Assembly (NCBI RefSeq): GCF_032062105.1
Contig: NW_026932065.1
Location: forward strand, 124,001-188,000
Reading direction: 5' to 3'
Length of the DNA: 64,000 nucleotides
Source of the DNA: Saccostrea cucullata
Lineage: Eukaryota
Positions 26,501-32,200 of this stretch are shown here, piece by piece. Each line of letters opens with the position of its first letter. Positions within the stretch are counted from its first letter, which is position 1. Made by a program: the position numbers.

Positions 26501-29251
26501 GAATTAATGTTCTTAGTCGTGAGTTCTTTTGTAAAACGCCCCCTGTGCTCCATGCTCTATTTAAAGATTTGTATTTTTTATCGCTTAAGGTAGGTCGCGG
26601 GTTTACTGCATAAAAATTCTTACGAGAAAACATATCCTGAAAATTTGATAAAATGTTCCTTAGAATTTAAAGAGTATCATCTGCAATTTTTATTAAATTT
26701 GCCTAGGTAGTTTTAATGTTATAGTACTGTAAACGCGGTATAGTTTTTAATTCTTTTTGACGCTTTTACCATTGAAATATATGGGAAAATGACGTTTTTA
26801 AGCCAATTTTGTGAAAATAGTTTCTTTTAAAAATGTTGGATAACTTTTTAAAGATGTAGGCGAATTATTCAGGAATTTCAAAATGTCAAGATGAGGTAAA
26901 ATCAAAACCATTAATATAAAAAAATCAATATGTCTTCTCGCTAGATTTTTTGCTAAATAATTTCAAAGTTTTTTTTCTTAATGCTAAAATTTGGCGTTTA
27001 TGGCGTTGTTAATATCTACAACGTCATTTGTTGAACGTGGTCACGTTTACAGTACGAGTATAAATTTATTGACCTATGGAATATGCAAGAATTCAAAGGT
27101 GATATCGATACAAAATTTAATTTTATTCATCATTTAATTTATTGCGGAGGCATATTAGGATGACCAGCAACTTATTTTCACTAGTATTGTGGAATTCATA
27201 TTCTGATCACAAAGTCAGAATGAAAGGTATAAGTAATCCTCGTGCAGCGACATTAACATGCAGCAACAATGTTCACCGCGAGTGAAAAAAATATTAGTAC
27301 CTGTATTTTTAGGAAATGCATGGTCAAAAGGATTTCAGTCATTAAACAAAAATTTGATCACTTTATTTGAAAACGGTAGGAAAAACATCTCTTTAATGAG
27401 GAAATAAGTGGGCCGGGGAGGGGGGGGGGTACGTGCAATGTTCTTTCTATATTAGTCGCAAGCTATAATATATGGCTCTAAATCTCAAGCATTTTTTAAT
27501 TTCGAATTTTCTGAATTAAATTTCAATACGCAAAATGTAAAACAATTGCATTTAGCTTTTACACGTTGAGCTTTTGTCATAAAAATATATAGAAAATAAT
27601 TATACTTGTAAATTGTTTACAGTGTTTTGTAAGTCTTAAAATCCAGGTGTTTGAATAAATATGATTTTTAAATGCATTTCACAATTTATTAGCAAGCAAA
27701 CCAAGGCGACTGCACGAGATTTAAATACATAACAACCAGCCAATATTAATAATGATAATTTAAAAAAAAAAAAACAGGAAAATACTTGTAATTGAATATA
27801 ACTCAATCGTTTTTAGTGATGAGGCTTAATTTCCATCCTGAAAAGTATACGCATATTTTCGCCCCGGCTTTGATTTGAAGTCAAGTTCCCCTGAGTTTCA
27901 AATAACGTGCGCACATACAATCCCTCAAGTTTCTCGCTAAGCAATTTTTTATTCATGATAACTTTCTTTCTGCAAGCCATAACTTACGCTGATTTATTCT
28001 GATGACTTTAAGCAGTTTAGTTACACTTCAAATATAATTTATTGCTTTCATTTTGTATTAATATTGTATTTAATTAGTCCTAAGACGTTACATATAATCA
28101 CACCAGAATTCAAACTGAAATTTAATTATAAAACATGTACGACGTTTACGTACAATGGCATGCACTTTGTTTGTTTAAAATATACTTGATTCGTAGAGAC
28201 TTGAAGTCATTTGCAGAGAATTAAACGGGAAACAACATGACGTTGTCTTTGTGACGTAATTGACGTCATAATCAAATGTGCACAAAACAATCGCTCGAAT
28301 CGTCGAAATTGTGTACCAAAATTGATGACAAAAGCAAACCCGCGACCTACCTTAAGGTAGGTCGCGGGTTTGCTTTTGTCATCAATTTTGGTACACAATT
28401 TCGACGATCCGAGCTGTTGTTTTTGTGCACATTTGATTATTACGTCAGTAACGTCACAAAGGCAACGTTACGTTGTTTCCCGTTTAATTCTCTGCAAATG
28501 ACTTCAAGTCTGTACGAATCAAGTAGATTAATACAGAGTGCATGCTACTGTACGTAAACTTCATACATGTTTTATTATTAAATTTCAGTCTGAATTCTGA
28601 TGTGATTATATGTAATGTCTTAGGACTAATTAATCAAATACAATACAAAAAGAAAGGAATAATTTATATTGTAAGTGTAATTAAACTGCTAAGAGTCAAT
28701 CAGTATAAATCAGCGTAAAAGTTATGGTTTGCAGAAAGGAAGTTATCATGAGTAAAAATTGCTAAGCGGGAAAATTGAGGGGTTGTATGTACGCACGTTA
28801 TTTGAAAATCAGGGGAACATGCGTGTTGCATTATGACTGCCAATCAAAGCCGGGGCGAAAATATGCGTATACTTTTCAGGATGGAATCAATCCTCATCAC
28901 TAAAAACGGGTTAAATTTGATTATATGTATTTTCTTGGGTTTTCATTAGTGTTTGGTTGTTATGTATTTAAATCTCGTGCATTCGCCTTCTTGTTTTGCT
29001 GGCTAATAAATTGTGAAATGCAGCTAAAAATCAAATTTATTCAAACACCTGTACTGTAAGACTTATAAGACAGTATAAACAATTTACAAGTATAATTTTT
29101 TTTCTAAGCTCAAAGTGTATTAGGTAAATGCAAGTGTTTTACATTTTGCGTATTGAAAATTGATTCAGATAATTCGAAATTAACAAATGCCTGAGATTTA
29201 GGGCCATTTACTATAGCTTGCGATTAATATAGAAAGAACATAGCAGATACC

Positions 29252-29287
<36 letters not shown>

Positions 29288-32200
29288 CTTATTTCCTCAG
29301 TATCGGGATGTTTTTCTTACCGTTTTCGAATAAAGTGATCAATTTTCTGTGTTATGTCTGAAATCCTATTGACCATGAATTTCCTAGAAATACAAGTACT
29401 AATATTTTATCACTCGCGTTTGTCTCTGTACGTTAATTCTCATGCACGAGGGATGTTTATACCTTTCATTTTGACTCAATGATCAGAATATGAATGTCAC
29501 AATACTAGTTAAAATAAGTTGCTGGTCATCCTAGTATGTCTCCGCAATAAATTAAATGATGAATGAAATTAAATTTTGTATCTATGTCACCTTTTAAATC
29601 TTGCATATTCCAAAAGTAAAGATATTTATACTCGTATACTGTAAACGGGACGTGACTACGTTCAACAAATGACGTTGTAAATAACGCCATAAACGCAACA
29701 TTTTAGCAGTATAAAAGAAAACTTTGAAATTATTTAGCAAAAAATCTAGCGAGAAGACATATTGATTTTTTTATAGTAATAGTTTTGATTTTACCTTATC
29801 TTCATATTTTGAAATTCCTGACTAATTCGTCTACGTCTTTAAAAAGTTATCCAATCTTTTGAAAAGAAACTATTTTCACAAAATTGGCTTAAAACGTCAT
29901 TTTCCCATACATTTTAATAGTAAAGCGTAAAAAAAAGTACTAACAACAATACCGCGTTTACAGTGATATAGCATTAAAACTACGTAGGCAAATTTGATAA
30001 AAATTGCAGATAACACGCTGTGAATTCTAAGGAACATTATATAAAATTTTCAGGATATGTTTTCTCGTAAGAATTTTTATGCAGTAAAGCCGCGACCTAC
30101 CTTAAGGTCAAGATCTAGTAAATGACTTTAGAAAAAAATTTCAGTGCTAAATCCATTATGACGTCATAATCACTTTCAACTTTCTTTTTCCCGTACTTTA
30201 CGGCTCTAATAGAATTATGTAGAAAATAAAGTATTTTCATGGAATTCAATTTGAAATCACGTGAAAAGTAGTCCCGATACCTATCTTAAATTTAACATTA
30301 TTTTAAAGTAGAGACTAAGAACATACAAATAACCGTTTTCTGAAAAACTGTAGGCAATCTGGATACATTTTCTTTGTCTGATATGGAAAAAACTCCTATT
30401 TTCAATACTGGTTTTCTTAATTTTTCATTCAAAATGACAGTTTAAAATATGGTTTTTCATCTTGTTTTTCTACAAATAATGCCCCGAAACACCTATTTTG
30501 ACCAAGGTAATGTTATGAAGCATCATTAAAGGAATTAATATCTTAAATTTGAAAAATCTGTAGGCACCTTCCATTTACTAGATCTTGACCTTAAAAGATT
30601 TGTATTTTTTCTCGCTTAAGAAAATCACCGATGTCTTCACCATTTTCATTCAAGTTTTACCCAAAAAACGTTATGTCTATTTCCGAAGAAGTAATTAATA
30701 TAGATAAGGATTTTAATCCAATGTTTCTAAACAATTGCGAAAATTAATGATCGACCTTCTTGAAAGTAAATAATAAATCTGCATGTTAGTCAAATTGTAT
30801 AGAAATATTTATTAATTTAGCAGTAAGTTACGAATTACTTTATTAACCGTTTGAGGTACATGTAGGCAGGTCTTTGTTACGTTGTATGTTTTACATTTTC
30901 CGTAATTGATCTTTTTGGTTGATTTCAAGCAATATTAACCTCAAAAGTCTCTGATAATACCTGTACATCATTTTAAATTATGTGGGTATGTTCATTTCTC
31001 CTAAATAACTATTTAAAAGCAAATAATTTATAAATGTCATTGACTTAATGTATAAAGTTACAGCAGATACACTTTAATAATAATTTTTCCCCGTGTTCCC
31101 CGTATGGTTGATGATATGCTTCCGGTGATGAACTGTCCTGAGTAACACGTTGGTGTTGCATATAAAGGAAGTTTATTTTTAAGGTTCTTAAATTACACGA
31201 CTGTGACATAAACATCCGGGGCCTGTTTCACAAACGTTTCCTAAGATATTTCGTAAGACATAACTTAAGATATGCCTAAGTTATAACTTAGGAAGTTCCT
31301 AAGATTTGTCACAGCTGTTTCACGAAACAATCTTATCTTAAATTTTTCCTAAGTTATTTCTTAAGTTGTGCCTTTATAAGGTCTAATGAAAAAACTTCTC
31401 CGATCTATCTACAATTCTCAGTATGTCAGTCTGGTATTTTTTTTTTAGCTTCAAAAAGGGAGGGGATTATCCCAACTTTCAAAGGACTTGGACAGAAGTA
31501 TGTTTTAACTATGCGAAGTTACTATGCTAGAACTAAGCATTCACAGACACACCCTTTCAAGCCTTCTTCCTTTCGGGGAACACGACATTTGTATTTTTTT
31601 AAAAATATAGTTCCACGTTTTATACGTTTACTTTATTTTGCTCTTTATAAGGTATAGATCCCAGGTATCTTTTTACTTTACCTTTCTACTTGTCAATTAT
31701 TGAATGAAATTTAAAAATGATTGCTTTGTAGCGAACACTTGGGCAATAAAATAATGCTTTTCCAATGACTGCCCCACATTAGGAGAGGGCTAAAATGGGC
31801 TGCGCTTGCTGCCTATTCACAATAACATCAGTGAATAAAATATTGATGAAATAAAAAAATAAGTTGTTCGTGCTGTGTGAAGCTTTCTCACATATATAAG
31901 ATAAAATGCCATGCTAGAAAAAAATCCCAAATTCGCGACTACAGATATGAAAATACTAAAAGAAGTTTAAAAAGGAAATTTATTGAAATCTCTTGCACAG
32001 CTAAACATTGTATTAAGCAGGGAGCACAACTGGTTGTAATCTCATGGTCGTACGAACTGGAGGAGCACGGGAGGGTGGGGTATAATAATAATTTTTCCTA
32101 TGTATATATAGAATACTACAGAAAACAAAATTGCGTAATGTTTGTGTTTTCTCAATAATAACGTCTTAGAGGAGATTTGATGCAACCATTCTTCGGAAAA

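What the first reader, a model, noticed from the sequence alone, without database searches (positions are those of the whole stretch)
26589..30101. ~3.5-kb spacer-less palindrome with a perfect 110-bp core
Copies A and B are inverted about the central TTAA (axis 28353/28354). 28299-28408 is a perfect palindrome, which is why the ORF track gives the same peptide on both strands, while the outer arms are clearly diverged. Divergence argues against a fold-back read artefact and for independent or old insertions. The perfect core extends well beyond the 16-bp TIR, hinting at arm-to-arm conversion or strong end conservation. Long spacer-less palindromes are normally unstable (cruciforms), and this one lies 1.5 kb downstream of CCDC59, so read-through would give long dsRNA.
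Basis: partly seen in the sequence, partly recalled or inferred. Interest (0 to 1): 0.65.

Follow-up and report, generated by a model that had tools for sequence, protein, structure and literature searches.

The report
Two inverted transposon copies abutting
Two diverged copies of a small non-coding cut-and-paste transposon sit end to end in opposite orientation in an oyster genome, which is ordinary transposon biology, although the site seems to attract such insertions.

Summary
28299-28408 is a perfect 110-bp palindrome. It lies at the centre of a 3.5-kb inverted pair whose arms match at 88% of aligned bases.

The pair is two complete copies of one 1.75-kb non-coding DNA transposon:
- Each copy has a 16-bp terminal inverted repeat, GG...CC termini and flanking TTAA.
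- The copies are joined right end to right end through a single shared TTAA.
- TTAA plus purine-purine termini fit the Kolobok superfamily and not piggyBac (paper passage).
- The host is a Saccostrea oyster.

Identity shows no gradient away from the axis:
- The outer ends, 3.5 kb apart, match at 57 of 58 bases.
- The longest perfect run, 58 bp, is interior.

So the perfect core reflects conserved transposon ends. Conversion at the axis is not needed to explain it. Most of the divergence between the arms predates insertion.

The best reading is that one copy inserted into the other's flanking TTAA, as in the double P element of singed-weak.

Two new points:
- A third TTAA element abuts copy B.
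- The whole 4-kb block is flanked by a 25-bp direct repeat that I cannot explain.

Dispersed copies, reads and small RNAs could not be checked.

The parts
26564..26588 (+). Left copy of a 25-bp direct repeat that flanks the whole three-element block. It ends in the TTAA that borders copy A.
   Evidence: 24 of 25 identical to 30595-30619. These are the only two matches in the window; shuffles give 0 expected.
26585..26588 (.). TTAA flanking the outer (L) end of copy A
26589..28351 (+). Copy A: non-autonomous TTAA-specific DNA transposon, 1763 bp. It has 16-bp TIRs (26589-26604 and 28336-28351) and GG...CC termini.
   Evidence: TIRs; no ORF over 68 aa lies wholly inside a copy, and 0 of 24 ORFs have a Pfam hit.
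28352..28355 (.). Single TTAA shared by the R ends of A and B. The palindrome axis falls between 28353 and 28354.
28299..28408 (.). Perfect 110-bp palindrome: the terminal 53 bp of each copy's R end plus the TTAA.
   Evidence: as single-stranded DNA, 28254-28453 folds as one hairpin, -103 kcal/mol, z = -24.
28356..30101 (-). Copy B: same family, 1746 bp, inverted relative to A. Its outer TIR has one mismatch (GGC for GGG).
30102..30105 (.). TTAA shared by the outer (L) end of B and the third element C
   Evidence: (I20)
30106..30590 (.). Element C: a 485-bp TTAA-flanked MITE-like element with perfect 19-bp TIRs, GG...CC termini and TTAA at 30591-30594. It is a different family from A and B. 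All it shares with them is the GGT terminus and a 14-mer.
   Evidence: (I20)
30595..30619 (+). Right copy of the 25-bp direct repeat
24923..25090 (+). Last coding exon of the TAP26/CCDC59-like gene. By tblastn the exons lie at 21996-22085, 22265-22456, 24191-24241 and 24923-25090.

Best explanation
Two already diverged copies of one non-autonomous, TTAA-specific cut-and-paste transposon inserted one after the other at the same place. The family is most likely Kolobok superfamily.

**How the structure formed.** The first insertion duplicated its TTAA target. The second copy then inserted, in the opposite orientation, into one of those flanking TTAAs. That gives TTAA-A-TTAA-B-TTAA, with no spacer other than the shared target duplication. 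A third TTAA element (C) later did the same at the next TTAA. Which copy came first is unknown.

**Why the core is perfect.** The 110-bp core is simply two right ends back to back. Transposon ends are the transposase substrate, so they stay conserved within a family while interiors drift. Both pairs of ends are near-identical, so the 12% interior divergence mostly predates insertion and the insertions are comparatively young.

**Why the same spot (inferred).** The GG...CC termini next to TTAA rebuild a palindromic target, C-TTAA-G extended to CC-TTAA-GG. A resident element would then make its own flank a good target. This has been argued for the P element and its inverted double insertion at singed-weak.

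**Shown versus inferred.**
- Shown: the anatomy, the lack of coding capacity, conservation of both ends, and the absence of a gradient.
- Inferred: the order of events, the attraction of the target, and superfamily membership.
For: **Anatomy**
- Four TIR+TTAA sites lie exactly at the predicted borders, and all three TTAAs are intact.
- The inverted repeat stops at the outer TTAAs. Beyond them the flanks are a direct repeat, not an inverted one.
- The element has no coding capacity.

**Conservation of the ends**
- 1 difference in the first 58 columns at the outer end, and 0 in the last 55 at the axis.
- The whole alignment has 219 differences in 1721 columns with each gap run counted once.
- 0 of 20000 column shuffles give both end results together.
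- 50-column bins show no decline in identity with distance from the axis.

**Superfamily and host**
- Kolobok makes TTAA duplications and has 5'-RR...YY-3' termini, unlike piggyBac. It occurs in molluscs, and its KolobokP lineage is reported as especially rich in bivalves, with Saccostrea listed (passages and sections 5, 7, 8 of PMC9587614).
- The same TTAA and RR rule is given in PMC6004289 (passages).
- The host is a Saccostrea oyster.

**Precedent.** Passages of PMC2577343 say three things:
- P-element termini restore the palindromic target.
- Repeat insertions are predicted to be inverted and separated by exactly the duplication length.
- This is what is seen at singed-weak.

**Junctions.** CCTTAAGG occurs in the window only at the two element-element junctions. 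That count alone is not significant: 12 of 100 shuffles reach 2.
Against: - No dispersed copy of the family could be examined. The claims that A and B belong to different sublineages, and that the ends are conserved family-wide, rest only on the A-versus-B comparison.
- Interior perfect runs of 58, 45 and 40 bp also exceed expectation: only 18 of 20000 shuffles give five or more runs of 40 or longer. Patchy conversion between the arms could produce this just as well as functional constraint.
- The target-attraction idea rests on three junctions at one locus. The one other TTAA element with purine termini in the window (500-966) sits in TGG-TTAA-AGC, which is not C-TTAA-G.
- The 25-bp flanking direct repeat is not predicted by simple sequential insertion.
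- No Kolobok transposase is in the window: 0 of the 43 ORFs of 90 aa or more that I scanned (of 44 listed; the axis-crossing one is) has a transposase domain.
Confidence: 0.72

Rival explanations
1. Conversion between the arms. The two copies are old, and the perfect core is kept identical by gene conversion or repair between the arms, starting at the axis.
For: - A perfect run of 55 or more at the axis end arises in only 12 of 20000 column shuffles.
- The pattern of identity along the arms is patchy, with 5 runs of 40 or longer.
Against: - The outer ends, 3.5 kb apart, are equally conserved (57 of 58).
- The longest perfect run is interior.
- There is no gradient from the axis.
- The conserved blocks coincide with the two transposon termini, which family-level constraint already explains.
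Confidence: 0.1
2. In-situ origin. One element was duplicated in inverted orientation on the spot, by fold-back repair or replication at a transposase cut, or by alternative transposition of sister-chromatid ends. The arms have since diverged.
For: - Alternative transposition can create inverted duplications of transposon sequence in maize Ac/Ds (abstract of bioRxiv 10.1101/2020.01.07.897926).
- The 25-bp flank duplication hints at some non-standard event at this site.
Against: - The inverted repeat ends exactly at complete TIRs with intact TTAAs, and the flanks are not inverted.
- Neutral divergence after duplication should have hit the ends as hard as the interior. Instead there is 1 difference in 113 terminal columns against about 12.7% overall.
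Confidence: 0.08
3. The block is itself a mobile unit. A-TTAA-B, or A-B-C, moved here as one composite using its outer ends. The 25-bp direct repeat would be an aberrant long target duplication spanning two TTAAs 24 bp apart.
For: - The outer ends of A and B form a 57-of-58 inverted pair that a transposase could use.
- The left flank reads TTAA-20 nt-TTAA, and nearly the same unit recurs on the right.
Against: - The repeat flanks A-B-C, not A-B, and C's end belongs to a different family.
- The right copy has one extra A and one substitution.
- I know of no precedent for a 25-28-bp duplication by a TTAA transposase. This is from recall; I made no search on it.
Confidence: 0.07
4. Assembly artefact: a fold-back chimeric read, or a misjoin of two haplotypes.
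For: Oyster genomes are highly heterozygous (recalled). Reads could not be inspected.
Against: - Differences between the arms: 200 substitutions and 19 indels, among them runs of 14, 16, 17 and 20 bp.
- The junction is a biologically exact TIR-TTAA-TIR.
Confidence: 0.03

Closest known systems
Double P element of the Drosophila singed-weak allele
   Same: Two defective copies of one cut-and-paste transposon lie in inverted orientation, separated by exactly one target-site duplication. The element termini are argued to rebuild the palindromic target and so make the site a hotspot (passages of PMC2577343). P and Kolobok belong to the same group of five superfamilies sharing the C/DxxH motif (passage of PMC9587614).
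   Different: - The target here is a 4-bp TTAA, not an 8-bp duplication.
- The host is a mollusc and the superfamily is different.
- Instability and excision are documented for singed-weak and unknown here.
- A third, unrelated element abuts the pair here.
Kolobok superfamily non-autonomous elements, for example the Xenopus T2-MITEs
   Same: TTAA target duplication, purine-purine termini, short TIRs and no coding capacity (passages of PMC6004289, and PMC9587614).
   Different: - T2-MITEs have a terminal AGGRR motif. Here the terminus is GGTAGG.
- At 1.75 kb this element is longer than a typical MITE.
- No link to a transposase has been shown.
KolobokP composite-like elements of bivalves
   Same: They occur in oysters, Saccostrea included. 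They form arrays of abutting units, and their solo units of about 450 bp carry their own short TIRs. Element C is 485 bp with 19-bp TIRs (sections 5, 7 and 8 of PMC9587614).
   Different: - KolobokP has long terminal direct repeats, and its multimers are in direct orientation.
- Its duplications are 3-5 bp with no strong target specificity.
- A and B have no internal direct repeats, sit in inverted orientation and have strict TTAA flanks.
Mu killer and the Ac/Ds composite insertions of maize
   Same: Inverted duplicated transposon sequence lies next to a gene. Read-through gives a roughly 4-kb hairpin RNA and siRNAs that silence the family (abstract of PMC3440606; abstract of bioRxiv 10.1101/2020.01.07.897926). 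An RNA across this locus would fold the same way.
   Different: - Those loci arose by rearrangement of a single element and are shown to be transcribed.
- Here there are two separate full-length non-autonomous copies, with no evidence of transcription or small RNAs.
- The host is an animal with different silencing pathways.

Membership tests
Kolobok superfamily (DNA transposon) | [quoted passage not shown] | tested here: met
   TTAA at 26585, 28352 and 30102 borders both copies. The rule is taken from a passage of PMC9587614.
Kolobok superfamily (DNA transposon) | Termini 5'-RR ... YY-3' | tested here: met
   Both copies begin GG and end CC.
Kolobok superfamily (DNA transposon) | Mobilised by a Kolobok DDD/E transposase with the C/DxxH signature | not testable with these tools
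   The element is non-coding. No transposase ORF is in the window. No eukaryotic genome collection was available in which to look for an autonomous partner with matching ends.
piggyBac superfamily | TTAA target-site duplication | tested here: met
piggyBac superfamily | Termini 5'-CC...GG-3'. The motif is recalled. says only that Kolobok termini differ from piggyBac. | tested here: not met
   The termini are GG...CC.
KolobokP lineage | Long terminal direct repeats of about 450 or 660 bp flanking an internal region | tested here: not met
   The window self-comparison finds no direct repeat inside A or B.
Foldback-type single element (one unit made of two long inverted arms) | Arms belong to one unit, with no complete element ends at the centre | tested here: not met
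   The centre holds two full TIRs around a TTAA, identical to the outer TIRs.
Inverted double insertion at a restored target (singed-weak type) | Two copies of one family, inverted, separated by exactly one target duplication | tested here: met
   A and B are inverted and separated by a single TTAA.
Inverted double insertion at a restored target (singed-weak type) | Element termini complete a palindromic target motif that is preferred genome-wide | tested here: inconclusive
   The junctions read CC-TTAA-GG, and the likely original site reads C-TTAA-G. Only three junctions were available, and one other TTAA element in the window lies in a different context.

The most novel reading that the evidence does not exclude
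Kolobok-type elements in oysters may actively target the TTAA beside a resident element end, because their GG...CC termini rebuild the preferred palindromic target CC-TTAA-GG. Insertions would then pile up end to end: three elements here, plus a duplicated 25-bp flank left by a further insertion, excision or repair event. Such pile-ups would build spacer-less palindromes. Lying between two convergent genes, these could be transcribed into hairpin RNA and serve as self-made silencer loci for the family, an animal counterpart of Mu killer.
Probability: 0.1. Interest if true: 0.6.

Novelty: new member of a known kind. Interest (0 to 1): 0.25.

Why it matters
As it stands this is an ordinary piece of transposon archaeology. 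It mainly shows that a striking perfect palindrome needs no special mechanism.

It would matter more if a genome-wide census showed that TTAA elements with purine termini abut each other more often than chance allows. That would extend the idea that transposon ends restore their own target from the P element to Kolobok. It would also give a simple route by which genomes acquire long hairpin loci that could start silencing of DNA transposons in animals.

Tried and rejected
**Searches and scans that found nothing useful**
- Other copies of the family in the window: none (blastn; TIR pattern). No family consensus or per-position conservation could therefore be made.
- The TIR as a word in the paper library: 0 papers.
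- Papers with 'oyster', 'MITEs' and 'TTAA': 1 paper, which the listing shows to be on another topic.
- Papers with 'transposon', 'head-to-head', 'TTAA' and 'palindrome': 3 unrelated papers, judged from the listing. I therefore found no printed description of this element or of Kolobok inverted dimers. Supplementary files of PMC9587614, which hold the consensus sequences, were closed and may contain this family.
- Pfam on 24 ORFs inside A, B and C: 0 hits.
- Rfam at a permissive threshold on 25000-31500: only sub-threshold matches of the perfect hairpin to hairpin-shaped models, MIR3444 at 48.9 bits against a gathering score of 80 and ohsC at 34.2 against 50. I rejected these as shape matches.

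**Ideas considered and rejected**
- Element C as a deletion derivative of A or B: only a 14-mer and the GGT terminus are shared.
- KolobokP architecture: no direct repeats.

**Collections not used or not available**
- The bacterial and archaeal genome collection and the phage, plasmid and E. coli collections were not used, because they cannot hold an oyster transposon.

**Handling of the spliced gene.** For the TAP26/CCDC59-like gene I searched the last exon on its own. I located the other exons by aligning the returned named protein to the window.
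Full report
**What is there**

The window is 64 kb, 32% G+C and has no N. It comes from an oyster.
- An intronless receptor ORF at 7814-9001 is 94% identical to a Saccostrea echinata protein and 79% identical to a Crassostrea virginica protein.
- The exon at 24923-25090 is 100% identical to a protein named for Saccostrea cucullata.

Extending from the axis 28353/28354 gives exactly 55 complementary bases on each side, 28299-28408. The inverted repeat as a whole runs from 26584 to 30106.

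**Anatomy**

The 20-mer made of TTAA plus the 16-bp terminal repeat occurs four times, at 26585(+), 28336(-), 28352(+) and 30086(-, one mismatch). Shuffles give 0.01 expected. The structure is therefore TTAA [A, 26589-28351] TTAA [B, 28356-30101, inverted] TTAA.

Each unit is a complete element with its own pair of 16-bp TIRs and GG...CC termini. The two right ends face each other across a single TTAA.

Neither copy encodes anything.
- No stop-to-stop ORF lying wholly inside a copy exceeds 68 aa. The 86- and 97-aa ORFs simply cross the axis.
- 0 of 24 ORFs in A, B and C hit Pfam at E of 0.01 or better.
- Of the 44 ORFs of 90 aa or more in the window, I scanned 43, and none has a transposase domain. 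The remaining one is the axis-crossing ORF scanned.

**How alike are the arms, and where**

The global alignment of A to the reverse complement of B has 1811 columns, with each arm taken to include its half of the central TTAA.
- 1502 matches, 200 mismatches and 109 gap columns.
- 88.2% identity over aligned bases.
- 94 transitions, 106 transversions and 19 indels of 1-20 bp.

In 50-column bins, identity is 100% in the first bin at the axis. It then fluctuates between 50% and 96% with no trend.

The perfect runs of 40 bp or more are:

| Length (bp) | Position |
|---|---|
| 58 | interior, 26915-26972 |
| 55 | axis |
| 45 | 27831-27875 |
| 45 | 26602-26646, at the outer end directly after its single mismatch |
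| 40 | 28197-28236 |

I collapsed each gap run to one event, giving 219 differences in 1721 columns, and shuffled the columns 20000 times.

| Result to match or exceed | Shuffles that reach it |
|---|---|
| Longest run of 58 or more | 1387 |
| Five or more runs of 40 or longer | 18 |
| Axis run of 55 or more | 12 |
| Axis run together with at most 1 difference in the 58 outer-end columns | 0 |

The perfect core is therefore real, but it is matched by equal conservation of the outer ends 3.5 kb apart. This is what conserved transposon termini predict and what conversion at the axis does not.

With 1 difference in 113 terminal columns against about 12.7% overall, most of the divergence between the arms must predate the time when both copies were in place. 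This last step is inference.

**Classification**

Kojima and Bao state that Kolobok makes TTAA duplications and, unlike piggyBac, has 5'-RR...YY-3' termini. They list molluscs among its hosts. They report the KolobokP lineage in almost all bivalve genomes examined, Saccostrea included (PMC9587614: passages; sections 5, 7 and 8). Hikosaka and colleagues give the same TTAA and RR rule for the Xenopus T2-MITEs (PMC6004289, passages).

The element meets both sequence criteria, and it fails the piggyBac terminus as I recall it. It lacks the direct terminal repeats of KolobokP. The transposase link cannot be tested here.

**Mechanism**

Sequential insertion into a flanking TTAA reproduces the structure exactly.

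The closest precedent I found is the P element. Linheiro and Bergman argue that the P termini restore the palindromic target, so a resident element improves its own site. They predict that repeat insertions are inverted and separated by exactly the duplication length, as at singed-weak (PMC2577343, passages).

Here the presumed original site reads C-TTAA-G, and both element-element junctions read CC-TTAA-GG. That 8-mer occurs nowhere else in the window. This count is not significant on its own, because 12 of 100 shuffles reach 2.

The window holds 740 TTAA sites. Under uniform targeting within the window, hitting one of an element's two flanking TTAAs would have odds of about 2 in 740. Genome-wide expectations depend on copy numbers that I could not measure, and the locus was picked out because it looks odd.

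**Beyond the finding**

A third element, C (30106-30590), has perfect 19-bp TIRs, GG...CC termini and TTAA on both sides. It abuts B through the TTAA at 30102-30105.
- C shares with A and B only the GGT terminus and the 14-mer TGACGTCATAATCA. The 14-mer lies in A at 28261, in B with one mismatch at 28434, and in C at 30159 (which found 5 matches at up to 2 mismatches against 0.48 expected).
- GACGT is about fourfold enriched in the block. 16 of the window's 64 matches lie in 6.3% of its length.

The whole A-B-C block is bracketed by a 25-bp direct repeat, 26564-26588 and 30595-30619, which is 24 of 25 identical and unique in the window. I cannot explain it. The candidates are:
- a pre-existing tandem unit whose middle TTAA was hit;
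- unequal exchange between elements inserted at the two TTAAs 24 bp apart;
- filler synthesis during repair of a transposase cut;
- an aberrant long target duplication.

*Instability.* As single-stranded DNA, 28254-28453 folds into one hairpin of -103 kcal/mol, z = -24. Only 110 bp are perfect, and beyond that mismatches and indels would hinder cruciform extrusion. Whether the site is unstable cannot be told from one sequence.

*dsRNA.* An RNA of 27904-28803 folds into a single long hairpin, -610 kcal/mol against -185 for shuffles.
- The block lies between the TAP26/CCDC59-like gene (+), whose coding sequence ends at 25090, and a receptor ORF on the minus strand at 33686-34915. Read-through from either side is conceivable.
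- Seven polyadenylation-type hexamers lie in the 1.5 kb upstream of the block, and no expression data were available.
- Mu killer (abstract of PMC3440606) and the Ac/Ds composite insertions (abstract) show that such loci can silence a family in maize.

**Not checked**

- dispersed copies of the family;
- orthologous loci;
- reads across the axis;
- small RNAs;
- the supplementary consensus files of PMC9587614.

**Verdict**

The structure is an inverted double insertion of a non-autonomous Kolobok-like transposon, and its perfect core is explained by conserved ends. This is a new member of a known kind and of modest interest. The clustering of three TTAA elements and the 25-bp flank repeat are the only points worth following up.

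Noticed in passing
window 30106-30590 (TTAA at 30102-30105 and 30591-30594): A third TTAA-flanked element of 485 bp, with perfect 19-bp TIRs and GG...CC termini, abuts copy B and shares its TTAA. Three TTAA elements therefore lie end to end.
   Followed up: partly
window 26564-26588 and 30595-30619: A 25-bp direct repeat (24 of 25 identical, unique in the window) brackets the whole three-element block. The left flank reads TTAA-20 nt-TTAA. The origin is unexplained.
   Followed up: partly
window 28261-28274, 28434-28447, 30159-30172: The 14-mer TGACGTCATAATCA, which contains the palindrome TGACGTCA, lies 54-91 bp from an end in A, B (one mismatch) and the otherwise unrelated element C. GACGT is about fourfold enriched in the block. 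These may be subterminal binding sites.
   Followed up: partly
window 23111-23948: An 838-bp foldback-like element has arms about 76% complementary and is flanked by the 9-bp direct repeat ATATATTTC (23102-23110 and 23949-23957). It lies inside an intron of the TAP26/CCDC59-like gene, so it would be transcribed as a hairpin in the pre-mRNA.
   Followed up: partly
window 500-966: A 459-bp TTAA-flanked element with 21-bp TIRs (one mismatch) begins AGGGGC. This is the AGGRR-type terminus described for Kolobok T2-MITEs (motif).
   Followed up: no
window 40374-40462 and 40972-41060: An inverted repeat pair, 89 bp at 93%, surrounds about 500 bp. Another MITE-like element may lie here, and TTAA-flanked 29-bp TIRs were also detected at 40411/41023.
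   Followed up: no
window 48339-48750, 57044-57986, 61736-62312: Three arrays of a tandem repeat of about 160 bp, 79-88% alike, lie at three places.
   Followed up: no
window 19253-19672 (-): An ORF fragment has a reverse-transcriptase domain (PF00078, 1.3e-20). It is a retroelement remnant upstream of the TAP26-like gene.
   Followed up: no
window 7814-9001 (+), 33686-34915 (-), 38264-39805 (-), 44439-46292 (+): Three intronless rhodopsin-family receptor ORFs are present, the first named QRFP-like peptide receptor in relatives. A run of exon-sized ORFs gives weak, sub-cutoff matches to immunoglobulin domains.
   Followed up: no
window 27410-27429 and 29253-29286: The homologous G/C homopolymer differs greatly between the arms. 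It is an interrupted G run in A and 34 consecutive C in B, which makes it a likely hotspot for length change or sequencing error.
   Followed up: no
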